Shown: positions 9,128 through 52,352, counted from the first letter of the stretch. The stretch: DNA of 64,000 nt from a bacterium (GCA_030697795.1 JAUYOV010000007.1:73810-137809); one strand, 5' to 3'. Notes: generated from the letters alone by a model not told the origin. Made by a program: numbers and translations.

Positions 9128-9260
9128 TAAAATATATTTTTAAATTTCCAATTTCTAATATCTAATTACTAATCAAATCCCAATGACTAATGAACAAATA
9201 ACTAAAAAACTTTCTGACATTAGGCGTTTAAGCATTAGACATTGATTAGAAATTGGTAAT
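9128..9260. repeat. Inverted-repeat intergenic element, TCTAAT-unit family (copy 1)
   Basis: Arms aatttccaatttctaatatctaattactaatcaa ... ttgattagaaattggtaatt are reverse complements of each other. Same architecture at 10631, 34508, 36560, 47428, 52253. Confidence 0.7.
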
Positions 9261-10630: not shown

Positions 10631-10760
10631 TTGGAAATTACTAATTACCAATTTCTAATTACTAATAAAACTTTAAATGACTAATGACTAAATACTTTTG
10701 GACATTGGGATTTTGGTATTAGACATTGATTAGAAATTAGGTATTAGATATTAGAAATTC
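10631..10760. repeat. Inverted-repeat intergenic element, TCTAAT-unit family (copy 2)
   Basis: ttggaaattactaattaccaatttctaattactaat ... attagacattgattagaaattaggtattagatattagaaatt. Confidence 0.7.
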
Positions 10761-20252: not shown

Positions 20253-20329
20253 GGGCGTGTAGCTCAATTGGTTAGAGCACAGAGCTTATACCTCTGCGGT
20301 TCTAGGTTCGAGTCCTAGCACGCCCACCA
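20253..20329 (+). tRNA. tRNA-Ile with anticodon TAT (UAU), CCA encoded
   Basis: GGGCGTGTAGCTCAATTGGTTAGAGCACAGAGCTTATACCTCTGCGGTTCTAGGTTCGAGTCCTAGCACGCCCACCA. Ile-like body (compare E. coli Ile GGGCCTGTAGCTCAG...). Anticodon loop CTTATAC. Confidence 0.75.
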
Positions 20330-20406
20330 CGTAGGAAAAGTCAAAGAGTTTTGGGGGCAAAAACAAATTGGCGGTTTCGCATTTTGGGGGAAGAAAATTT
20401 TTAATC

Positions 20407-20637
20407 ATGATGAATAAATTAGAAAAAACAATTTTTTGGGGCGGTTTGATAGTTATAATCATAGATAATATCTATTGGCAGTGGTGGATTAAACTAACAG
20501 TAGACCCGTCTGTTGGCGGAGATGTCTTCAAAGGGTGGAGTATGGCTTGGGATATAATTTTTTTGGCTGTATGGGTTTATGTTCTTATCCGAATTTATAA
20601 AAGAGCCAGCAGAAAAGAAAAAGAAACAGGCGAATAG
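20407..20637 (+). CDS. Hypothetical small membrane protein
   Basis: Two hydrophobic helices. Start taken at first ATG (MMNKLEKT); the track ORF starts upstream at a non-ATG codon. Confidence 0.35.
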   Translation: MMNKLEKTIFWGGLIVIIIDNIYWQWWIKLTVDPSVGGDVFKGWSMAWDIIFLAVWVYVLIRIYKRASRKEKETGE

Positions 20638-20652
20638 GAACTTAAAAAATAC

Positions 20653-21108
20653 ATGGACTCTCAAAACAAAACTTTTAGTTACGCTGGATTTTGGAAAAGA
20701 TTTGCCGCTTTTATCATAGACATGTTTATTGTGTCTATCGGTGGTTTTATTATTGGTTTTATATTTGGAGTTCCCTACGATGTTCTCACTGGCAAAGCTG
20801 AGCTTGTTGGATTTGCCGATGATTATATTCTTAGTTTCATTTTGAGTTTTCTGCTTGTTTGGATTTACCAAGCGGTCATGGAAAGCTCTTCTAAACAAGC
20901 GACTCTTGGCAAAATGGCTCTTGGAATAATAGTTACTGATTTAGATGGAAGCCGAGTATCTTTCGGAAAAGCATCGGGTCGCTATTTTGGACAAATGCTT
21001 TCCGGGTTTATCCTCGGTATAGGATTTCTCATGATTGCTTTTACTGCAAGAAAACAGGGTCTTCACGATAAAATGGCTGGTTGTTTTGTTGTAAATAAAA
21101 ATGCATAG
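20653..21108 (+). CDS. RDD-family membrane protein
   Basis: 151 aa. FWKRFAAFIIDMFIV...KQGLHDKMAGCFVV matches RDD-domain topology/motif. Confidence 0.6.
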   Translation: MDSQNKTFSYAGFWKRFAAFIIDMFIVSIGGFIIGFIFGVPYDVLTGKAELVGFADDYILSFILSFLLVWIYQAVMESSSKQATLGKMALGIIVTDLDGSRVSFGKASGRYFGQMLSGFILGIGFLMIAFTARKQGLHDKMAGCFVVNKNA

Positions 21109-21200
21109 ATTTTTGTCACCAAAGAAAAACTTGAAATCGTAAAAACTTAAGTTTTAATTTCGGAATATTTAACCAGACTACCAATACCAAACTCACAACT

Positions 21201-21230
21201 CTCATTTTCACGCTCGAGCGTGAAAATGAG
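21201..21230. repeat. 30-nt perfect palindrome ctcattttcacgCTCGAGcgtgaaaatgag (CTCGAG-palindrome family, copy 1)
   Basis: Read directly. Preceded by ccaata and followed by ggaaagtttaa, as is copy 2. Confidence 0.8.
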
Positions 21231-21366
21231 GAAAGTTTAAATCTAAATTAGTCCAATGTTGACTTATAAATTATGTTTTGTTATAAATCTTAAATCGGAA
21301 AAACCGATAATCCCTTAACAGGGAAATTGCAATAACTTAGTCCCTTAAAAGAAAGAGAGTGATACC

Positions 21367-21669
21367 GTGAAAAGATCTAGATCTACGCTGTATCTAGTTC
21401 TCCTAGCTACAATTTTTGCCATCAGCTGTACTGCTGGACCAAACTCTGCAGTAGGGACATCTGCTTTGGATGGCAATATCGCTGGTTTCTGGCTCGGTCT
21501 ATGGCAAGGAATGATTATAGGGTTTTCGTTTATTATTTCACTCTTTTCTGATAGTGTGCGCATATACGAAACGCACAACAACGGAAGCTGGTATGACTGG
21601 GGTTTTGTGCTCGGTATTGGCGGACTAAGTGCTTCTTTAAAATTACTAGACAGAAAAAGTAATAAATAA
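21367..21669 (+). CDS. Hypothetical small lipoprotein/membrane protein (GC-richer)
   Basis: 100 aa. Signal peptide with lipobox-like IFAISC. Terminator follows at 21697-21735. Confidence 0.45.
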   Translation: MKRSRSTLYLVLLATIFAISCTAGPNSAVGTSALDGNIAGFWLGLWQGMIIGFSFIISLFSDSVRIYETHNNGSWYDWGFVLGIGGLSASLKLLDRKSNK

Positions 21670-21696
21670 TAGAGTTACTCCTAACAACCTTCATCA

Positions 21697-21735
21697 CGAA
21701 CTCCTAGCAGGCAAACTCCGCTAGGAGTTTTTTTA
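21697..21735 (+). terminator. Rho-independent terminator
   Basis: aactcctagcaggcaaactccgctaggagtt + tttttattt. Confidence 0.6.
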
Positions 21736-21759
21736 TTTAATTAACAAAATCCAATAACT

Positions 21760-21789
21760 CTCATTTTCTCGCTCGAGCGGGAAAATGCG
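21760..21789. repeat. CTCGAG-palindrome family, copy 2 (ctcattttctcgCTCGAGcgggaaaatgcg)
   Basis: Read directly. Stem differs from copy 1 by compensatory changes. Confidence 0.75.
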
Positions 21790-21821
21790 GAAAGTTTAAG
21801 ACTGATAGACAAAATTAAATT

Positions 21822-22388
21822 TTAAGATAATCCGAAGCTATTCTTGAGAGCTAAGTCATCATCAAACTTACTAATTTCCAAAAACCTTACGTGCGGGCGT
21901 AAGTTGAAGAATTCAACCACGTAATCAACCTCATTTTTGCATTCATAAGGCAAAATGAAAGCGCTTTCCTGGTATTTTATAAATCCCAGCTGTTTTAGCA
22001 TATTTCTTAGCACATCCCTTTCTTTTTTACGTTTATTGGGTATATCGAACATAACCATTCGCCATTTGCCGTCCCATCTGGCGGGTTTTTTGATGGTCAT
22101 GGTATCCATATTGTAAGTTAAAGCCTTTTTGCGCCCATCATCCGAAAGAACCACCGTCATAGAACCGTTTTCATGTTCTCTGGCTTCTATAAGTTTAGAT
22201 TCATAAAGTGATTTTATAGCGCGCTTAAGCGAGGTCTCATTAATTTTATTCCATTCATCTGCTACACTTTTAATAACAGCAAAATATTTTTTAGGCGTAC
22301 CCGCCAAAGAAAGCCCTACTCCCCCAGCCAGCAATAATATAATTTTTTTCTTTGTTGGGCCTAATTTGTTAAAACTATTCTTATCCAT
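21822..22388 (-). CDS. PaaX-like winged-helix transcriptional regulator (short form)
   Basis: 188 aa. ...ARWDGKWRMVMFDIP...LKQLGF...ESAFILPY parallels the E. coli PaaX central WDGKWLLLLSEGL...LIWQGFG region. N-terminal wHTH-like segment. Confidence 0.45.
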   Translation of the reverse strand: MDKNSFNKLGPTKKKIILLLAGGVGLSLAGTPKKYFAVIKSVADEWNKINETSLKRAIKSLYESKLIEAREHENGSMTVVLSDDGRKKALTYNMDTMTIKKPARWDGKWRMVMFDIPNKRKKERDVLRNMLKQLGFIKYQESAFILPYECKNEVDYVVEFFNLRPHVRFLEISKFDDDLALKNSFGLS

Positions 22389-22490
22389 TTTATATTTTTA
22401 TTTATCTTATTATATATAATATTTTTATATAAGATTATTTTATTTATACAACACTTTATACAATATTCTAACCTACTTCCGCTAGACAAT

Positions 22491-22520
22491 CTCATTTTCA
22501 AGCTCGAGCGACAAAATGAG
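22491..22520. repeat. CTCGAG-palindrome family, copy 3 (ctcattttcaagCTCGAGcgacaaaatgag, imperfect)
   Basis: Read directly. Confidence 0.7.
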
Positions 22521-22569
22521 AATAGTTAGAAACGGATGTTTTAATTAATTAGAGTATACACCATATTTT

Positions 22570-23079
22570 ATGTTCCATATAGAATCAAATTCTCCACAAC
22601 ATTTAAAAGTAGGAAAAGCAGGCGAAGACATTGCCTGTAAATATTTAAAAAACAAAGGCTATAAAATAATAGAAAGAAATTTTAGAAGAAAGTGGGGCGA
22701 AATAGATATTGTTTGTTTAAAAAAAAATAATAACGGTTCTATATGGAATAAAATAGCTAATAATGTTTTAGTTGTTCTACAGGGAACAAATTACAACAGA
22801 CAAAACTTAAATATTGATCTGTGCGATGATCCACAAGAAGCAAGTAATAATAAACTTATTTTTGTTGAAGTAAAAACATTAAAAGAAGGATCTGGCTTAA
22901 GTCCGGAAGATAATCTGACTTACTCCAAACAAAAGAAACTAATTAGAACATGTAAATTATATGTTTCAAATAATCCTACATATGCAGATTACGACTGGCA
23001 AATAGATGTGATATTAATAAACATAAATAGTGATCTAAAGAAAGCAAAAATAAAACATATGGAATCAGCCATATATTGA
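22570..23079 (+). CDS. yraN: YraN-family (UPF0102) endonuclease-like protein with low-complexity insertion
   Basis: GKAGEDIACKYLKNKGYKIIERNFRRKWGEIDIV...LIFVEVKT matches the YraN/UPF0102 core. Asn-rich insert in the middle. Confidence 0.6.
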   Translation: MFHIESNSPQHLKVGKAGEDIACKYLKNKGYKIIERNFRRKWGEIDIVCLKKNNNGSIWNKIANNVLVVLQGTNYNRQNLNIDLCDDPQEASNNKLIFVEVKTLKEGSGLSPEDNLTYSKQKKLIRTCKLYVSNNPTYADYDWQIDVILININSDLKKAKIKHMESAIY

Positions 23080-23163
23080 TATAATAGAAAAATATTTTTA
23101 TTAATTCCTTACAGGAAACCCCGCACTCTGTGCTGGGAGAAGATAATTTAACCTAAACCTACT

Positions 23164-23201
23164 CAATCTCATAATCACGCTCGAGCGTGATTATGAGATT
23201 G
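23164..23201. repeat. CTCGAG-palindrome family, copy 4 (38-nt perfect palindrome caatctcataatcacgCTCGAGcgtgattatgagattg)
   Basis: Read directly. Confidence 0.8.
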
Positions 23202-23463
23202 AATTTCATTAAAGAAAAAAACAAAAAGAACAAAAAAATGGAAAATGGAATGGAAAATGGTCAGATTGTTATTGGTTTATTTGATTCATTTGGTTTATAG
23301 GCTTATCTCTAAGCTATTTAATATGAAATTATTTAATATTAAATAAAGAGACCAGATATTACAAACAATATCCACATTTGCCAAAAAAGATAATGGCTGT
23401 TAATATTATATAAATAAGTTAAGTACCCACTTGGAACAGTGACGCTGTCCCAGTTGATCTTTC

Positions 23464-24262: not shown

Positions 24263-24342
24263 AGCCGACACTCAATCGGAAAGCGAGTTTATCCTTATGT
24301 TTCTTGGCGAAGGGAATATAAGGATATATTCGAGCCTTGGTT

Positions 24343-24362
24343 GTATTGTCGGCCGACAATAC
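24343..24362 (+). promoter_or_regulatory. 20-nt perfect palindrome in pnp 5' leader, 2 nt before the start codon
   Basis: gtattgtcggccgacaatac read directly. In position to occlude the translation-initiation region. Confidence 0.35.
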
Positions 24363-24364
24363 AA

Positions 24365-26464
24365 ATGAATAACAAAAAAAGATTTGAAACCGAAATCGGT
24401 TCAAAGAAATTAGTGGTAGAAACAGGACACTGGGCTATACAAGCCAGTGGCGCTGTAACGGTAAGCTATGGAGAAACAGTAGTACTAGCTACTGTAGTTA
24501 TGTCTAAAAACGAAAGAACTGGCATAGACTATTTCCCTTTAACCGTAGATTTTGATGAAAAATTTTATGCCGCAGGTAAAATCAAAGCTTCCCGCTGGGT
24601 TAAAAGAGAGGGTAGACCTACGGACGAGGCTATTTTAACAGCCAGATTAGCCGATAGAACCCTGCGACCACTTTTTAACCACAGATTAAGAAACGAAGTT
24701 CAGCTTATCTTAACTGTACTGTCTTTTGACGGAGAAAACGATCCAGATGTACCAGCCATAATTGCAGGCTCCACCGCTATATTAATTTCCGGTATTCCTT
24801 GGAACGGGCCGGTTGGGGCTATAAGAGTAAGTCGAGATGAAAATAAAAAAATAGTAATAAACCCTACTTATGCCGAGCGCGCAAAAAGCGATTTAGATTT
24901 AGTAGTGGCCGGCCCAGAAAAATTAGTAAATATGATAGAGTGCCGGTCCCGCGAAGTAACCGAGGAAGATTTGCTGGTGGCTTTTGAAAGCGCCCAAAAA
25001 GAAATTCAAAAGATAATAGATTTTCAAAAAAATATTGCCGAATCTCTTGGTCATAAATCGTTATTAACCGCTGTGCCTTCGGCCGATGAAATCTTAAGAA
25101 AAGAAATAAAAAATTTTGTGGGCCAGCGCTTAGCAGAAACAATTTCTAAGGGCGATATGAACGCAACTGAAGAAATTAAAAAAGAATACTTCCAAAACCT
25201 GTCCGAAGAAAAGAAAAATCCCAAAAATATAGCCGAGGCCAACATTCTTTTTGAAGAAGAAATGAATGAAATAATCCACAGAAATGTTTTAGAAAAAAAT
25301 CAGCGTGTGGACGGCAGAAAAATAGAAGAAATTCGCCCTTTGAGCATTGAAGTTGGTGTATTACCGCGCACCCATGGTTCAGCTATTTTCCAAAGAGGCC
25401 AAACCCAAGCTTTGTGTGTAGCTACACTGGGCGCGCCAGGTATGGAGCAAGCCATTGAAACCATGGAATTTGAAGGCACTAAGCGCTATATCCACCATTA
25501 CAACTTTCCTCCGTTTTCATCTGGAGAAACAGGTAAAACTGGCAACCCCGGCCGAAGAGAAATCGGTCACGGCGCTTTAGCCGAAAGCGCGCTAGAACCG
25601 GTAATTCCTGCTAAAGTGGATTTTCCTTATACCGTTAGAATCGTAACAGAAATACTTTCTTCCAATGGTTCAACGTCTATGGCCGCAACTTGCGGTTCGA
25701 CTTTGGCTTTAATGGACGCTGGGGTGAAAATTAAAAAACCGGTGGCGGGCATAGCTATGGGCTTATTTATTGAAGACGAAACCAATCCAGAAAAAAAATT
25801 CGTGGTGGTCACAGATCTGCAAGGCGCGGAAGATCACTACGGCGATATGGATTTTAAAATAGCTGGCACCACAGAAGGTGTTAACGTTTTGCAGTTGGAC
25901 GTAAAAATATCTGGTCTAACTTCTAAAATACTGGCTCAAGCCTTAACTCAAGCCAAAAAAGCTAGATTAGAAATTCTGGAAGCCATGCTTAAAGTTATAC
26001 CTAAACCCAGAGAGAAAATGTCACCTTATGCACCGAAAATATTAACTTTAAAAATAAATCCTGCTAAAATTAGAGATGTTATTGGCGTCGGCGGAAAAAC
26101 TATACACCAGATAACAGACGAAACAGGTGTTACAATAGATATAGATGACGATGGCACTATATTTATAACTTCCAGCGATGAAGCCTCGGCCGAAAAAGCC
26201 AAGGAATGGATAAACAACCTGACGCGCGAGATTATTCAAGGCGAAATATTCCAAGGTAAAATAGTAAAAATATTAGATTTTGGAGCCTTTGCCGAAATAC
26301 TGCCGGGCCAGCAGGGTCTGATTCACATTTCCGAATTAGCGCCCTTTCGCGTAAACAGAGTGGAGGATATTGTTAATATAGGCGACATTGTGCCTGTTAT
26401 AGTAAAAAACATAGACACCGAAGGCAGAATTAATCTTTCGCTTAAAGACGCGCAAAAAAAATAA
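24365..26464 (+). CDS. pnp: Polynucleotide phosphorylase
   Basis: About 700 aa. Two RNase PH domains, KH and C-terminal S1 domain (GKIVKILDFGAFAEILPGQQGLIHISEL). Start chosen at ATG MNNKKRFETEIG; the track ORF begins at upstream TTG inside the palindrome. Confidence 0.92.
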   Translation: MNNKKRFETEIGSKKLVVETGHWAIQASGAVTVSYGETVVLATVVMSKNERTGIDYFPLTVDFDEKFYAAGKIKASRWVKREGRPTDEAILTARLADRTLRPLFNHRLRNEVQLILTVLSFDGENDPDVPAIIAGSTAILISGIPWNGPVGAIRVSRDENKKIVINPTYAERAKSDLDLVVAGPEKLVNMIECRSREVTEEDLLVAFESAQKEIQKIIDFQKNIAESLGHKSLLTAVPSADEILRKEIKNFVGQRLAETISKGDMNATEEIKKEYFQNLSEEKKNPKNIAEANILFEEEMNEIIHRNVLEKNQRVDGRKIEEIRPLSIEVGVLPRTHGSAIFQRGQTQALCVATLGAPGMEQAIETMEFEGTKRYIHHYNFPPFSSGETGKTGNPGRREIGHGALAESALEPVIPAKVDFPYTVRIVTEILSSNGSTSMAATCGSTLALMDAGVKIKKPVAGIAMGLFIEDETNPEKKFVVVTDLQGAEDHYGDMDFKIAGTTEGVNVLQLDVKISGLTSKILAQALTQAKKARLEILEAMLKVIPKPREKMSPYAPKILTLKINPAKIRDVIGVGGKTIHQITDETGVTIDIDDDGTIFITSSDEASAEKAKEWINNLTREIIQGEIFQGKIVKILDFGAFAEILPGQQGLIHISELAPFRVNRVEDIVNIGDIVPVIVKNIDTEGRINLSLKDAQKK

Positions 26465-34225: not shown

Positions 34226-34507
34226 AGAAAAACTTAAAAATAAAACTCGCTTACCCCTTAGAGCAGTCAGAAGATTTTCAAAAAAAGATGAAATTTTATA
34301 CCAAATACTAATCGGATATTGACCTTTACTTAACTAATCTGGTTTAGATAACTATTCTAACCCCAAAATAGGTGGGTATTGGCCTAACAAGCTTACTTAA
34401 GCACAAAACCCTGGTGGGCAGGGTTGTAGGTAAATACTAGCTTTTTTGAGAAGTAAGGTCAATTAGGATATTCCACAGACTACAGCCAAAACACAAGGCT
34501 AGGAAAT

Positions 34508-34618
34508 GTCTAATTTCTAATATCTAATCAATGACTAATTCCAAAATGGCTAATTTTAAAATTTGATCATTAGGCATTAGGATTTGATTAGAAATTAGAA
34601 ATTGGTAATTAGAAATTT
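34508..34618. repeat. Inverted-repeat intergenic element, TCTAAT-unit family (copy 3)
   Basis: gtctaatttctaatatctaatcaatgactaatt ... ggatttgattagaaattagaaattggtaattagaaatt. Confidence 0.7.
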
Positions 34619-36554: not shown

Positions 36555-36559
36555 AAACA

Positions 36560-36682
36560 AATTTCTAATTACTAATATCTAATTTCTAATCAAATCCTAA
36601 GGCCTAATTATCAAACCTTAAAATAGACATTTTAGAATTAGACATTGATTAGATATTAGAAATTGGATATTAGATATTTCAA
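36560..36682. repeat. Inverted-repeat intergenic element, TCTAAT-unit family (copy 4, clearest example)
   Basis: Left arm aaatttctaattactaatatctaatttctaatcaa. Reverse complement of right arm aaatatctaatatccaatttctaatatctaatcaa. About 50-nt unique centre. Confidence 0.75.
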
Positions 36683-36685
36683 AAT

Positions 36686-37564
36686 ATGTTAAAAAGAAAA
36701 AATAAATTGTTATTAGAATCAGCCGACATTCGCCCAATTAAACATATGGGGCAAAACTTCTTAGTTTCCGAAGAAATTATAGAGAAAATAATTTTAGAGG
36801 CAAAGATTAAAACGGGCGAAACTATTTTAGAAGTTGGACCAGGTACGGGCAATTTAACTATGGCGTTATTGGCAACAGGGGCAAAAGTGGTAGCAATAGA
36901 AAAGGATTCTAAATTAGTTCATCTGTTAATTTCTAATTTCCAATTTCTAATTTCTAAAAAAAAATTAAAGGTAATTGAACAAGATATTTTGAGTTTTGAT
37001 GAAATGGCGATCAAATCGCCATATAGAGTAATCGCCAACATTCCCTATTATTTAACGGGCAAGCTGATTCAAAAATTTCTGCTTTCGGCTAATAAACCAT
37101 CGGAATTAATACTTATGGTTCAAAAAGAAGTGGGCGAGAGGATAACGGCGCAACCACCCAAAGCTAATTTTCTTTCTTCGCTAGTGCAGTTTCTGGCCGA
37201 AACCAAAATTTTATTTAAAGTAGGTAAAGAAAACTTCTGGCCTCAACCTAAAGTAGATTCAGCCTTGATTAAACTAACCCCGTACCAATATACACCGAGC
37301 ATACGATCGTATGCTCGTGATACGGTTGGAATCAATATCAATAATAATGAGGAATTTATAGAGTTTTTGAAGATGGTTTTTAGGCAACCGCGGCAGACGC
37401 TTTTTAATAATCTAAGAAAATATCTAGTTAGCACGAGTCAGCGATCGCCAGCTCATGCTAAATTAGATTCAGTCTTTCAAGAGCTTGGATTTGATAAAAA
37501 AATACGAGCTCAAAACTTGGGCAAGGAAGACCTTGTCAATCTTTTTAGCTTATTAGGATATTAG
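36686..37564 (+). CDS. rsmA: 16S rRNA (adenine1518/1519-N6)-dimethyltransferase RsmA/KsgA
   Basis: 292 aa. ILEVGPGTGNLT (SAM motif I) and NIPYYLTGKL match KsgA. Contains an internal ttaatttctaatttccaatttctaatttctaaaaaaaaa stretch coding LISNFQFLISKKK. Confidence 0.8.
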   Translation: MLKRKNKLLLESADIRPIKHMGQNFLVSEEIIEKIILEAKIKTGETILEVGPGTGNLTMALLATGAKVVAIEKDSKLVHLLISNFQFLISKKKLKVIEQDILSFDEMAIKSPYRVIANIPYYLTGKLIQKFLLSANKPSELILMVQKEVGERITAQPPKANFLSSLVQFLAETKILFKVGKENFWPQPKVDSALIKLTPYQYTPSIRSYARDTVGININNNEEFIEFLKMVFRQPRQTLFNNLRKYLVSTSQRSPAHAKLDSVFQELGFDKKIRAQNLGKEDLVNLFSLLGY

Positions 37565-44530: not shown

Positions 44531-44575
44531 ATTGTGATTTATAATTTGTTTAGGATTTAGATATTAGAATTTAGT
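44531..44575. repeat. Right arm of inverted-repeat element carrying four-helix-bundle gene
   Basis: aattgtgatttataatttgtttaggatttagatattagaatttag. Confidence 0.6.
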
Positions 44576-44591
44576 ATTTCACACACATATT

Positions 44592-44870
44592 ATGCAATTT
44601 CAGGTTCCACAATTTATAGAAATGGAAGATAAAATAATCGGCCCGTTAACCCTAAAGCAGTTTGGCTTTGTGGCGGTGGCCGGTGTACTTTGTTTTATAT
44701 TTTTTAGCACTCTTACCACCACTTTTGCGTTTATTCTTTCTTTCCCTGTGGCTTTAGCGGCTCTGGTTTTGGCTTTTGGCAAAATTAAGGGCCTACCAGC
44801 CTTAAAATATTTATCGTCGTTTATTAAATTTTCCTTAAAGCCACAATTATACTTGTGGAAGAAGAAATGA
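44592..44870 (+). CDS. PrgI-family / VirB3-like small membrane protein (precedes VirB4 as in Gram-positive T4SS)
   Basis: 92 aa. MQFQVPQFIEMEDKIIGPLTLKQFGFVAVAGVLCFIFF... fits the PrgI family N-terminal pattern (..P.FI..EDKI.GPLTL.Q) plus two TM helices. Confidence 0.55.
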   Translation: MQFQVPQFIEMEDKIIGPLTLKQFGFVAVAGVLCFIFFSTLTTTFAFILSFPVALAALVLAFGKIKGLPALKYLSSFIKFSLKPQLYLWKKK

Positions 44871-44892
44871 TAAACAATCAAATTATAAATAC

Positions 44893-44985
44893 TAAATCCG
44901 AAACTCTAAACAAACTCCAAATGCCAATTTACCAAATTAGAATTTGTGATTTAAATATTGTTTAGGATTTAGATATTAGAATTTA
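44893..44985. repeat. 'Empty' copy of the four-helix-bundle-carrying inverted-repeat element (left + right arms with about 25-nt gene remnant)
   Basis: ctaaatccgaaactctaaacaaac | tccaaATGccaatttaccaaattag | aatttgtgatttaaatattgtttaggatttagatattagaatttag. Arms near-identical to those at 44123 and 44531. Confidence 0.6.
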
Positions 44986-44991
44986 GAGATT

Positions 44992-47427: not shown

Positions 47428-47538
47428 AAATTCCTAATTTCTAATCAATTTCTAATGCTTAAATGCCTAATTTCAGAACTTAGCCATTAGACATTTTGGT
47501 TTGATTAGATATTAGAAATTAGATATTAGACATTTTAA
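47428..47538. repeat. Inverted-repeat intergenic element, TCTAAT-unit family (copy 5)
   Basis: caaattcctaatttctaatcaatttctaatgcttaaatgcctaatt ... gtttgattagatattagaaattagatattagacatttt. Confidence 0.7.
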
Positions 47539-52249: not shown

Positions 52250-52252
52250 TTT

Positions 52253-52352
52253 AATATCTAATGTCTAATTACTAATATCTAATCAATTTCTAATGTCTAA
52301 ATAGTCTTATCATTAGTCATTGGGATTTGATTAGAAATTAGATATTAGAAAT
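52253..52352. repeat. Inverted-repeat intergenic element, TCTAAT-unit family (copy 6), inside the rnpA-yidD-yidC operon
   Basis: atatctaatgtctaattactaatatctaatcaatttctaatgtctaaat ... gggatttgattagaaattagatattagaaattt. Confidence 0.7.

What the first reader, a model, noticed from the sequence alone, without database searches (positions are those of the whole stretch)
21201..23201. Four CTCGAG-centred 30-38 nt palindromes spaced 0.5-0.7 kb apart, one per spacer, with compensatory stem changes
The sequence ctcattttcacgCTCGAGcgtgaaaatgag (21201), ctcattttctcgCTCGAGcgggaaaatgcg (21760), ctcattttcaagCTCGAGcgacaaaatgag (22491) and caatctcataatcacgCTCGAGcgtgattatgagattg (23164) all keep a 12-16 bp stem around a CTCGAG core, although the stem sequences differ. 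Covariation means the structure, not the sequence, is conserved. They separate single genes of mixed orientation and different GC (RDD protein | small lipoprotein | PaaX-like | YraN |), and copies 1-2 share extended flanks (ccaata...ggaaagtttaa). Options are REP-like elements, hairpin terminators lacking U-tracts, recombination sites delimiting gene cassettes (attC-like), or targets of a CTCGAG-recognising restriction-modification or nuclease system.
Basis: seen in the sequence. Interest (0 to 1): 0.65.

Follow-up and report, generated by a model that had tools for sequence, protein, structure and literature searches.

The report
Binding sites of a mini-PaaX regulator
The four CTCGAG palindromes are real and are most likely the DNA sites bound by the small PaaX-like regulator encoded between them, a gene-plus-palindrome pairing found across the ultra-small Patescibacteria that I did not find described in the paper library searched.

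Summary
Four CTCGAG-centred palindromes lie at 21201-21230, 21760-21789, 22491-22520 and 23163-23202. All are intergenic, against 0.02 sites expected by chance.

The palindromes belong to the 188-aa gene they bracket (21822-22388, minus strand). This is a truncated PaaX-family protein: a winged helix-turn-helix plus a Cas2-like domain.
- Close relatives keep the same palindromes at the same positions in the same gene order.
- Among the loci of homologues scanned (39-97% identical), sites seeded only on the central 8-mer are about 13 times denser beside the gene than elsewhere. 41 loci have two or more good sites beside the gene, typically one about 49 nt before the start codon and one about 45 nt after the stop.
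- Arm sequences differ between lineages, but a half-site consensus (CA-WWWW-C-NN-RC) persists.
- Two-fold symmetry is strong at ±1-4 and ±9-17 and weaker at ±5-8, the pattern of a dimer's operator.
- In 33 of 60 upstream sites, the −35 box of the gene's own promoter lies inside the palindrome.

Most likely these are operators of an autoregulated local regulator. Only pal4 also shows hairpin-type covariation. Everything here is computational; binding has not been tested.

The parts
21201..21230 (.). pal1: perfect 30-bp palindrome. It is a duplicate of pal2 with about 47 nt of shared sequence, and it lies 28 nt upstream of the -35 box of the lipoprotein gene's candidate promoter.
   Evidence: (I21); RNA fold -20.3 kcal/mol, z -7.2
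21760..21789 (.). pal2: 13/15-pair palindrome just past the stop codon of the mini-PaaX gene (centre 47 nt from the stop). It lies between convergent genes and corresponds to the downstream (D) site of the family.
   Evidence: same position in L013, L052, L058, L070, L072; D sites have a median distance of 45 nt after the stop
22491..22520 (.). pal3: 12/15-pair palindrome between the divergent mini-PaaX and yraN genes. Its centre is 117 nt from the mini-PaaX ATG and 65 nt from the yraN ATG. Its mismatches fall at positions 5-7, the weakly constrained part of the site.
23163..23202 (.). pal4: perfect 40-bp palindrome 84 nt after the yraN stop codon and 262 nt before rpsO. The core is the same as in pal1-3, with added outer arms that differ between relatives but stay complementary.
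   Evidence: (I7); RNA fold -28.3 kcal/mol, z -8.9
21822..22388 (-). Mini-PaaX gene (188 aa): an N-terminal MarR-like winged helix-turn-helix plus a Cas2-like domain, with no C-terminal PaaX effector domain. It is the proposed binder of the palindromes.
   Evidence: Pfam PaaX_M E 1.8e-21; AF2 model pLDDT 83.8; Foldseek best match E. coli PaaX 8a39, then 3kfw and 3l09, then MarR-type and Cas2 chains; 130 homologues at E <= 0.001, and every source name that gives an organism is a Patescibacteria/CPR lineage; 958 clusters at 50% identity with E <= 1e-30
22570..23079 (+). yraN (UPF0102 nuclease, 169 aa, matched in two stretches on either side of an internal insertion). It is bracketed by pal3 and pal4. 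This pairing with the mini-PaaX gene is seen in this clade and in L104.
21367..21669 (+). Small gene (100 aa, no family match) bracketed by pal1 and pal2. It is part of a variable islet next to tRNA-Ile.
21259..21287 (+). Candidate promoter of the 100-aa gene: TTGACT, a 17-nt spacer, then TGtTATAAA. Read from the sequence, not tested.
   Evidence: sequence. The consensus scan requires T at position 6 of the -10 box and therefore does not list it.
22527..22555 (+). Weak candidate yraN promoter: TAGAAA, a 17-nt spacer, then TAGAGT. It starts 7 nt after pal3. Low confidence.
   Evidence: sequence only
21713..21730 (+). Ordinary intrinsic terminator (G+C stem followed by a T-run) of the 100-aa gene, directly before pal2. 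It shows that the palindromes are a different class of element.
20253..20329 (+). tRNA-Ile(tat). In relatives it lies right beside pal2. In the window about 1.4 kb (the RDD gene, pal1, the 100-aa gene and a terminator) lies between them.

Best explanation
The four palindromes are the cognate DNA-binding sites (operators) of the small PaaX-family protein encoded between pal2 and pal3.

Proposed mechanism:
- The protein binds as a two-fold symmetric dimer to a site of about 30-34 bp.
- The site has a central box (GCTCGAGC here; RCGATCGY, GCTATAGC or hybrids elsewhere) and two half-sites about 9-17 bp from the centre (CTCAT....C here; family consensus CA-WWWW-C).
- One site upstream and one downstream bracket the regulator's own gene. 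In most lineages the upstream site overlaps the gene's promoter, the geometry of autorepression.
- In the window's clade the module has gained two further sites. pal4 lies beyond yraN. pal1 is a recent duplicate of pal2 in front of the small gene's promoter. The local regulon is therefore the regulator itself, yraN and the 100-aa gene.
- pal4 is also kept as a long perfect hairpin-former. It may additionally act at the 3' end of the yraN transcript.

Shown: the association of gene and palindromes, the anatomy of the site, the promoter overlap in other lineages, the fold of the protein, and the stable genomic context.

Inferred: that the protein binds these sites, that it does so as a dimer on duplex DNA, the sign of regulation in this clade, and the role of the downstream sites. 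Looping or roadblock are guesses.
For: 1. The protein is a DNA binder of the right family. It matches Pfam PaaX_M at E 1.8e-21. The best Foldseek match of a pLDDT-83.8 model is E. coli PaaX 8a39, followed by MarR-type wHTH repressors and Cas2 chains. PaaX is known to bind a widely spaced inverted repeat, TGATTC-N27-GAATCA, and to repress its own promoter (PMC9493321).

2. Sites and gene are conserved together. Close relatives keep three palindromes at the same three positions in the order S1, ftsH, tRNA-Ile, mini-PaaX, yraN, rpsO, NYN, pnp.

3. The association holds in a scan that ignores the arms. Seeding on the central 8-mer alone gave 139 sites in 46 kb beside the gene against 110 in 466 kb elsewhere. 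Near sites mostly have 9 or more of 16 arm pairs, while far sites sit at chance level. 61 loci have at least one good site and 41 have two or more.

4. Placement is fixed. The upstream site centre is a median 49 nt before the ATG, and the downstream centre 45 nt after the stop.

5. The symmetry profile looks like an operator. Symmetry is 0.8-0.95 at positions 9-16, 0.56-0.71 at positions 5-8, and falls to chance by about position 25. When the two copies in one locus differ, usually only one arm has changed (107 of 161 cases at positions 9-17). Outer arms at 18-24 show compensated changes only at the chance rate.

6. A family-wide half-site consensus survives even though the arms diverge.

7. 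Promoter overlap. 33 of 60 upstream sites, against 10 of 57 downstream sites, are followed by a -35/-10 pair whose -35 box lies inside the right arm (offsets +3/+4 or +10 to +14). The -10 box lies 6-8 nt before the ATG.

8. There is no sign of mobility. Identical proteins were read on 19 contigs (P0053) and 6 contigs (P0094), and every place shown has the same gene context.

9. Site divergence tracks the wHTH region slightly better than the Cas2-like domain. The partial Mantel r is 0.14 (p 0.0005) against 0.10.
Against: - No binding experiment exists. Everything rests on association and geometry.
- In the window's own clade the upstream site does not overlap the regulator's promoter. pal3 is 98-134 nt from the ATG in most members and 66 nt in L070. 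pal2 lies between convergent genes, where there is no promoter to control.
- Downstream sites in general have no promoter after them. About half of the downstream neighbours are convergent. Their role is therefore unexplained.
- A minority of copies are much longer perfect palindromes than a dimer needs (up to 58 bp). The pal4 orthologues show repeated two-sided compensated changes in outer arms that no protein contact would require.
- The Cas2-like domain keeps the Cas2 hallmark residues (invariant D115, R124, Q140, S142), so an enzymatic role is not excluded.
- The protein-site co-variation is weak.
- Neighbouring genes are unrelated housekeeping genes, so no physiological target is evident.
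Confidence: 0.6

Rival explanations
1. The palindromes act as hairpins in RNA. They would serve as transcript-end, processing or stability elements (for example RNase III sites, or protection against 3' exonucleases) that insulate each small gene. Any protein binding would be secondary or absent.
For: - All four fold well as RNA, from -10 to -28 kcal/mol, z -3.4 to -8.9 on the + strand.
- pal4 and its orthologues have lineage-specific outer arms that stay complementary.
- Downstream sites start 5-60 nt after stop codons.
- G.U-type mismatches on the sense strand outnumber A.C-type mismatches, 83 to 52.
- Some copies in other lineages carry A-runs and T-runs like bidirectional terminators (for example L121 and L157).
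Against: - In 33 of 60 lineages the upstream site overlaps the -35 box and spacer of a promoter whose -10 box lies 6-8 nt before the ATG. These sites would therefore not be transcribed with the gene.
- Symmetry is weakest at positions 5-8, next to the would-be loop, and reaches chance beyond about position 21-25. Differences between copies are mostly uncompensated.
- Sequence blocks are conserved where pairing is lost (pal2, pal3, L070).
- Such hairpins are about 13 times denser beside one particular gene, which a general terminator would not be.
- The genome has ordinary terminators, one of them directly before pal2.
- No Rfam family matches.
Confidence: 0.14
2. The mini-PaaX protein is an active Cas2-like nuclease or structure-specific DNA protein. 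It would recognise the palindromes as extruded hairpins or cruciforms and process them. The unit of palindrome, gene and palindrome would then be a domesticated selfish or recombination module, and the duplicated pal1/pal2 around the small gene would be its cassette-like product.
For: - Cas2 hallmark residues are invariant.
- The unit is compact, with palindromes within about 50 nt of both gene ends.
- Some palindromes are perfect over 40-58 bp.
- pal1 and pal2 form a direct duplication of about 47 nt around a 0.5-kb gene, inside an islet next to a tRNA whose content varies between relatives.
- Palindromes of the same class sit in-frame at insertions inside ksgA, in the window and in L127.
- The module occurs in many different genomic contexts across lineages.
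Against: - Identical proteins always sit in the same context, and the window clade is fully syntenic.
- No second copy of the gene lies in any fetched locus.
- The variable genes in relatives (L013, L058, L073) are not bracketed by palindromes.
- Most copies are imperfect, and their mismatches go uncorrected.
- There are no target-site duplications or terminal inverted repeats beyond the palindromes themselves.
Confidence: 0.1
3. The palindromes are a dispersed REP- or MITE-like family, integron attC sites, or targets of a CTCGAG-specific restriction-modification system. These are the first reader's options.
For: - They are repeated palindromes in intergenic spacers.
- The centre is the XhoI site.
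- Gene content varies beside the cluster.
Against: - Only four copies occur in 64 kb, all within 2 kb. In each related genome the strict pattern hit only the contig(s) that carry this gene cluster.
- CTCGAG occurs 7 times against 5.5 expected.
- The centre changes to CGATCG, CTATAG or CTGGAG in other lineages while the association with the gene stays.
- Among the genes scanned (16.9-26.5 kb), none matches a recombinase, transposase, methylase or restriction family.
- The bracketed genes yraN and mini-PaaX are fixed.
- The three viral-contig hits are unrelated high-G+C sequences.
Confidence: 0.03

Closest known systems
E. coli / Pseudomonas PaaX repressor and its operators (TGATTC-N27-GAATCA), which autorepresses Px
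   Same: - The N-terminal wHTH and the central Cas2-like domain are the same. PaaX is the best structural match, and the Pfam PaaX_M domain matches.
- The binding site is a long inverted repeat with half-sites far from the dyad.
- The site lies at the regulator's own promoter.
   Different: - The protein is 188 aa and lacks the C-terminal helical domain that binds phenylacetyl-CoA.
- There are no paa genes nearby, and the effector is unknown.
- The site has a conserved central box in addition to the half-sites.
- A second site follows the stop codon.
- The family appears confined to Patescibacteria.
- It scores far below the PaaX equivalog cut-off (33.5 against 264.55 bits).
MarR-family autoregulators with palindromic operators that overlap their own promoters
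   Same: - The winged-helix fold matches ZitR, AdcR and MarR chains.
- The operator is dyad-symmetric and overlaps the -35 box or spacer of the regulator's own promoter in most lineages.
   Different: - Dimerisation would go through a Cas2-like ferredoxin-fold domain rather than the MarR helical dimer interface.
- The site is about 30-34 bp instead of about 20 bp.
- Two sites bracket the gene.
Repressors with paired operators on both sides of a gene that loop DNA (lambda CI OL/OR, GalR OE/OI, LacI auxiliary operators)
   Same: Two near-identical dyad sites sit about 0.65 kb apart and enclose the regulator gene. Only one of them is at a promoter.
   Different: Oligomerisation and looping are pure inference here. 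Nothing shows that the downstream site cooperates with the upstream one.
REPtrons (a RAYT gene flanked by REP palindromes) and IS200/IS605 ends
   Same: A small gene is flanked on both sides by cognate palindromes whose sequence is specific to the lineage.
   Different: - There is no HUH/Y1 transposase.
- The palindromes are not dispersed through the genome.
- The context is stable for identical proteins.
- In many lineages the upstream palindrome contains the -35 box of the gene's promoter.
Integron attC sites
   Same: Palindromic elements sit at gene boundaries. One small gene is bracketed by duplicated copies.
   Different: - The palindromes are near-perfect and lack the attC extrahelical bases and the R/L boxes.
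- No integrase is present.
- The genes have mixed orientation, and at least the small gene has its own candidate promoter and terminator.
- The bracketed core genes do not vary between relatives.

Membership tests
PaaX-family transcriptional regulator with operator | N-terminal wHTH plus central Cas2-like (PaaX_M) domain | tested here: met
   PF20803 E 1.8e-21; Foldseek best match PaaX 8a39, E 3.5e-6, then 3kfw and 3l09; MarR-like and Cas2-like sequence matches
PaaX-family transcriptional regulator with operator | C-terminal helical effector domain; passes the PaaX equivalog model | tested here: not met
   The protein is 188 aa and ends after the Cas2-like domain. TIGR02277 scores 33.5 bits against a cut-off of 264.55.
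PaaX-family transcriptional regulator with operator | Inverted-repeat operator at its own promoter (autoregulation) | tested here: met
   Computational only. 33 of 60 upstream sites have the -35 box inside the palindrome and a -10 box before the ATG, against 10 of 57 downstream sites. In the window's own clade the geometry differs (pal3 is 117 nt from the ATG).
PaaX-family transcriptional regulator with operator | Control of phenylacetate catabolic (paa) genes | tested here: not met
   No paa-pathway family is among the 25 commonest of the 142 families matched by 119 flanking proteins; those are housekeeping families such as YraN, MiaA, KsgA, tRNA synthetases and FtsH. The four loci listed gene by gene also hold no paa genes.
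PaaX-family transcriptional regulator with operator | Protein physically binds the repeat | not testable with these tools
   Needs gel shift, footprinting or DAP-seq.
REP elements / REPtron | Many dispersed copies per genome | tested here: not met
   Four copies in 64 kb, all within 2 kb. In each related genome the genome-collection scan hit only the contig(s) that carry this gene cluster.
REP elements / REPtron | Associated RAYT (Y1/HUH transposase) gene | tested here: not met
   The flanked gene is wHTH plus Cas2-like, with no HUH or Tyr motifs among its invariant residues.
Integron attC / gene cassettes | Adjacent IntI tyrosine recombinase and attI | tested here: not met
   The genes from 16.9 to 26.5 kb are S1, FtsH, RDD, mini-PaaX, YraN, S15, NYN and PNPase. 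The rest of the genome could not be tested.
Integron attC / gene cassettes | Bracketed genes vary between relatives (cassette behaviour) | tested here: not met
   Mini-PaaX and yraN are fixed in all relatives. Only the stretch between tRNA-Ile and pal2 varies, and its genes are not palindrome-bracketed in L013, L058 or L073.
Intrinsic (rho-independent) terminator | G+C-rich stem followed by a U-run | tested here: not met
   pal1-3 are not called. pal4 is called only through a weak T-containing tail. Canonical terminators in this genome look different.
Restriction-modification target (XhoI-like) | Genome-wide bias of the hexamer; a fixed recognition sequence | tested here: not met
   CTCGAG occurs 7 times against 5.5 expected. 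The centre varies across lineages while the module persists.
CRISPR-Cas Cas2 (the name NCBI gives some members) | Stand-alone ~90-aa Cas2 next to cas1 and a CRISPR array | tested here: not met
   Only residues 110-146 match Cas2 models. No cas1 lies among the neighbours. The window has no array-like tandem repeats.

The most novel reading that the evidence does not exclude
The palindrome-gene-palindrome unit is not merely a regulator with operators. It would be a Patescibacteria-wide DNA-processing module, in which a wHTH-tethered, catalytically competent Cas2-like domain recognises and acts on the palindromes as hairpins or cruciforms.

This reading would account for four things the operator model leaves open:
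- the very long perfect copies;
- the promoter-less downstream sites;
- the in-frame palindromes inside ksgA;
- the pal1/pal2 duplication around a small gene in a tRNA-adjacent variable islet.
Probability: 0.1. Interest if true: 0.8.

Novelty: new variant of a known kind. Interest (0 to 1): 0.45.

Why it matters
Very little is known about gene regulation in Patescibacteria (CPR), whose genomes hold few regulators.

This work links a large, lineage-restricted protein family to a specific DNA element with a defined anatomy. The family has 958 clusters at 50% identity with E <= 1e-30. Some of its members are named 'CRISPR-associated endonuclease Cas2' by NCBI, and others 'PaaX' regulators by JGI.

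The result is a directly testable protein-site pair. It corrects a database annotation, and it suggests that these genes are leaderless and autorepressed.

In the window's clade the sites also bracket yraN, a nuclease recently tied to natural transformation. This hints at local control of a recombination gene.

The unexplained features (downstream sites, very long perfect copies, retained Cas2 residues) leave room for something beyond plain repression.

Tried and rejected
- Genome-wide REP idea. The strict-pattern scan of 185,579 species genomes gave 69 stretches. Only the low-G+C Patescibacteria contigs carried true copies, and those contigs carry this same gene cluster. The rest were chance matches inside high-G+C coding sequence.
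- Viral link. Three viral-contig hits all lie in 60-62% G+C sequence with no related genes.
- Known RNA families. An Rfam scan of 20-25 kb found only the tRNA and sub-threshold hairpin look-alikes.
- Mobility. Look-ups of two identical proteins read 25 contigs in all, and every place shown had the same context. No locus held a second gene copy.
- A constant partner gene. Pfam on 119 flanking proteins found YraN in 9 (8 of them in the window's clade), MiaA in 6 and KsgA in 4, with no common partner.
- General hairpin selection on the outer arms. Compensated differences between copies at positions 18-24 occur at the chance rate.
- Recognition-helix/half-site co-variation. The Mantel correlations are only weak, so this is not decisive.
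- G.U against A.C mismatch excess (83 to 52). This is compatible with an RNA role but also with strand-biased mutation, so I did not use it.
- parS resemblance (TTTCACG...CGTGAAA). Rejected, because exactly these positions vary between copies and lineages.
- Defence-system models. PADLOC gives only partial Cas2 matches.
- Literature. No paper listed in the searches of the held library links PaaX-like proteins of Patescibacteria to palindromes.
Full report
**1. What is in the window**

Reading 20.8-23.6 kb confirms four palindromes centred on CTCGAG.
- pal1, 21201-21230: 15 of 15 arm pairs.
- pal2, 21760-21789: 13 of 15.
- pal3, 22491-22520: 12 of 15, with a 3x3 mismatch at positions 5-7 from the centre.
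- pal4, 23163-23202: 20 of 20.

A degenerate pattern covering all four finds only these places in 64 kb, against 0.02 expected. The hexamer CTCGAG itself is at chance frequency, 7 copies against 5.5 expected. The other three copies are inside genes and have no arms.

The genes, from Pfam and the tRNA tools, run in this order:
- S1 and FtsH;
- tRNA-Ile(tat) at 20253-20329;
- an RDD protein;
- pal1;
- a 100-aa protein with no family match, followed by an ordinary terminator;
- pal2;
- a 188-aa PaaX_M/Cas2-like protein on the minus strand;
- pal3;
- YraN;
- pal4;
- S15, an NYN protein and PNPase.

pal1 and pal2 share about 47 nt including their flanks. The organism is a low-G+C member of the Patescibacteria (CPR). 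The closest homologue of the 188-aa protein (92% identity) is labelled Candidatus Sungbacteria.

**2. The palindromes travel with one gene**

The strict pattern was scanned over one genome for each of 185,579 species. True copies appeared only in a few low-G+C Patescibacteria contigs, and those contigs carry this same gene cluster.
- These contigs show the same gene order.
- They carry three palindromes at the same three positions: after the PaaX-like gene, between it and yraN, and after yraN.
- So the elements are neither dispersed nor cassette boundaries.
- The only variable part is the stretch between tRNA-Ile and pal2. It is empty in L070. It holds a 78-aa ORF in L013, two ORFs in L058, and RDD plus the small gene in the window.
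- pal1 is a duplicate of pal2 found only in the window among the loci compared; L013, L058 and L070 have no copy at that position.

I then fetched 80 metagenome loci encoding homologues of the 188-aa protein, 39-75% identical, without regard to palindromes. More loci came from exact-protein look-ups.
- Many of these genes are flanked immediately upstream and downstream by palindromes of quite different sequence, 30-58 nt long.
- The two copies are near-identical within a locus.
- The centres are CGATCG, CTATAG, the hybrids CGATAG/CTATCG, CTGGAG, and rarer forms.

To avoid choosing sites by their arms, I seeded on the central 8-mer alone.
- There are 139 sites in 46 kb next to the gene, against 110 in 466 kb elsewhere.
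- Near sites mostly have 9 or more of 16 complementary arm positions. Far sites sit at the chance level of 3-5.
- 61 loci have at least one good site and 41 have two or more.
- Upstream centres lie a median 49 nt before the start codon. Downstream centres lie 45 nt after the stop.

**3. What the protein is**

- The Pfam PaaX_M match has E 1.8e-21, with a partial Cas2 match.
- An AlphaFold model built from 24 homologues has mean pLDDT 83.8.
- Its best PDB match is E. coli PaaX (8a39), then Rv0674 (3kfw) and 3l09. MarR-type winged-helix repressors match the N-terminal half, and Cas2 chains match the C-terminal half (sequence level).
- The protein lacks the C-terminal effector domain of PaaX and scores far below the PaaX equivalog cut-off.
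- The Cas2-like domain keeps the Cas2 hallmark pattern FDIP...R...Q.S.F. D115, R124, Q140 and S142 are invariant in 24 sequences.
- The family is large: 958 clusters at 50% identity with E <= 1e-30.
- PaaX proper binds TGATTC-N27-GAATCA and represses its own promoter (PMC9493321).

**4. Anatomy of the site**

Half-sites aligned on the centre from 38 loci give the consensus CA-WWWW-C-NN-R-C-K-A up to the dyad. The window's CTCATTTTCACGCTC fits it. An L116 site, TCATATTCATACGA, is visibly the same motif with a different centre.

Two-fold symmetry across 120 sites is graded.
- It is 0.8-0.95 at positions 9-16.
- It is only 0.56-0.71 at positions 5-8.
- It falls to about 0.5 at position 21 and reaches chance by about 25.

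The mismatches in pal2, pal3 and the copies in L013, L058 and L070 fall at positions 5-8.

When two copies in one locus differ, usually only one arm has changed: 107 of 161 cases at positions 9-17. At positions 18-24, compensated differences occur at the chance rate.

This is what two protein-contacted half-sites plus a central box would give. It is not what a stem under pairing selection would give.

**5. Relation to promoters**

In the sense orientation, upstream sites are followed by TATAAT-like hexamers at fixed offsets. The peak is at +35 from the centre. These hexamers lie 6-8 nt before the in-frame ATG.
- A full -35/-10 pair with the -35 box inside the right arm of the palindrome occurs in 33 of 60 upstream sites, against 10 of 57 downstream sites.
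- An example is L121: TCGCGGGATTTTTTGACA, 17 nt, TAGAAT, 6 nt, ATG.
- So in most lineages the upstream palindrome overlaps the gene's own core promoter, the classical geometry of autorepression.
- The transcript would be leaderless, and the upstream palindrome would not be transcribed.

In the window's clade the geometry differs.
- pal3 is 117 nt from the regulator's ATG and 65 nt from the yraN ATG.
- pal1 ends 28 nt before a good promoter, TTGACT-17-TGtTATAAA, for the small gene.
- pal2 lies between convergent genes.
- pal4 is 176 nt upstream of the likely rpsO promoter.
- The sign of regulation here cannot be inferred.

**6. Is it mobile?**

Across lineages the neighbours are unrelated housekeeping genes. 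Yet identical proteins, read on 19 and 6 independent contigs, sit in the same context in every place shown. The window clade is fully syntenic. I found no evidence of mobility.

**7. What the operator model does not explain**

- Downstream sites have no promoter, and half of the downstream neighbours are convergent. Looping with the upstream site or a roadblock function are guesses.
- A minority of copies are perfect over 40-58 bp.
- pal4 and its orthologues carry outer arms that differ between genomes but stay complementary. They are TCAAT in the window, ACTAACTAACAT in L013, CCCTAACTCTTAT in L070 and TTCAC in L047. Their W positions change symmetrically. pal4 therefore seems also to be kept as a hairpin-former, perhaps at the 3' end of the yraN transcript.
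- Across 27 clade copies, arm covariation exceeds the shuffled and slid controls. Relatedness, and a shared protein preference on both half-sites, inflate such numbers.
- The Cas2 residues are retained.
- The protein-site co-variation is weak.

**8. Verdict**

The best explanation (confidence 0.6) is that these are the cognate binding sites of a truncated PaaX-family regulator. That regulator is autoregulated in most Patescibacteria. In this clade it is also placed to act on yraN and a small neighbouring gene.

The rivals are RNA hairpin function (0.14), a Cas2-like DNA-processing module (0.10), and REP, attC or restriction targets (0.03).

I found no description of this pairing in the searchable literature. 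I rate it a new variant of a known kind: a repressor with dyad operators. It has unusual features that deserve a binding experiment.

Noticed in passing
window 9147-9173, 10654-10755, 34505-34613, 36559-36679, 36932-36958, 44556-44987, 47433-47530, 52250-52349: A separate dispersed repeat. Arrays of the heptad TCTAATN (period 7) are often arranged as two inverted blocks of about 100 nt, mostly between genes, with one run inside the ksgA ORF. TCTAATNNCTAAT with at most 1 mismatch gives 39 hits against 3.2 expected. This, not the CTCGAG palindromes, is the REP-like family of the window.
   Followed up: partly
window 37296-37317 and 37430-37459 (inside ksgA, 36686-37564); L127 3845-3882: Two CGATCG-centred palindromes lie in-frame inside ksgA, both at insertions relative to other Patescibacteria KsgA proteins. 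Their arms (TTAGCAYGAGC...) resemble the site type that flanks a 54%-identical mini-PaaX in L079, and single sites beside the module in L073 and L077. L127, where ksgA follows the mini-PaaX gene, has a palindrome in the same KsgA loop. This may point to a second paralogue elsewhere in this genome, or to palindrome insertion into coding sequence.
   Followed up: partly
window 24341-24364: A perfect 24-nt palindrome, TTGTATTGTCGGCCGACAATACAA, lies directly before the pnp ATG at 24365. It is identical in L013, L034, L070 and L072. It may be a leader hairpin that controls PNPase, as the RNase III-cut hairpin does in E. coli.
   Followed up: no
window 20253-21789; L013 1961-2445; L058 4238-5444; L070 6595-6730; L073 6689-7473: The stretch between tRNA-Ile(tat) and pal2 holds different small genes in each relative. 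It is empty in L070. It holds a 78-aa ORF in L013, two ORFs in L058, and RDD plus a 100-aa protein in the window; in L073 a 203-aa ORF lies on the ftsH side of the tRNA. This is a small variable islet next to a tRNA.
   Followed up: partly
L128 10292-10408: Three different palindromes of this class stand head to tail just upstream of a strong TTGACA-17-TATATT promoter. One matches the arm type of that locus's own mini-PaaX, and one matches the arm type of a Campbellbacteria homologue (L156). This suggests several paralogues converging on one promoter.
   Followed up: partly
loci L081, L108, L109, L116, L120, L121, L128, L140, L147 and others: In many lineages the mini-PaaX gene has a TATAAT-like box 6-8 nt before its ATG, so the mRNA would be leaderless.
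   Followed up: partly
window 22570-23079: YraN here is 169 aa and matches UPF0102 in two stretches, on either side of an internal insertion (roughly residues 50-90). YraN was recently reported as the D-loop nuclease partner of ComM in natural transformation (bioRxiv 10.1101/2024.02.06.579203). What looks like a ComM/YifB-type gene, judged from the sequence alone, lies near 31 kb in the window.
   Followed up: no
proteins P0001, P0009, P0020, P0024: NCBI names several members of this family 'CRISPR-associated endonuclease Cas2', although only about 37 residues match Cas2 models and no cas genes or arrays are nearby. This is probably a propagated mis-annotation. Contigs L047 and L052, labelled Saccharibacteria, encode proteins 74-82% identical to the window's, so those taxon labels are doubtful.
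   Followed up: partly
L104 2950-2971: A canonical parS-like palindrome, TGTTTCACGTGAAACA, lies next to yraN in a distant relative.
   Followed up: no
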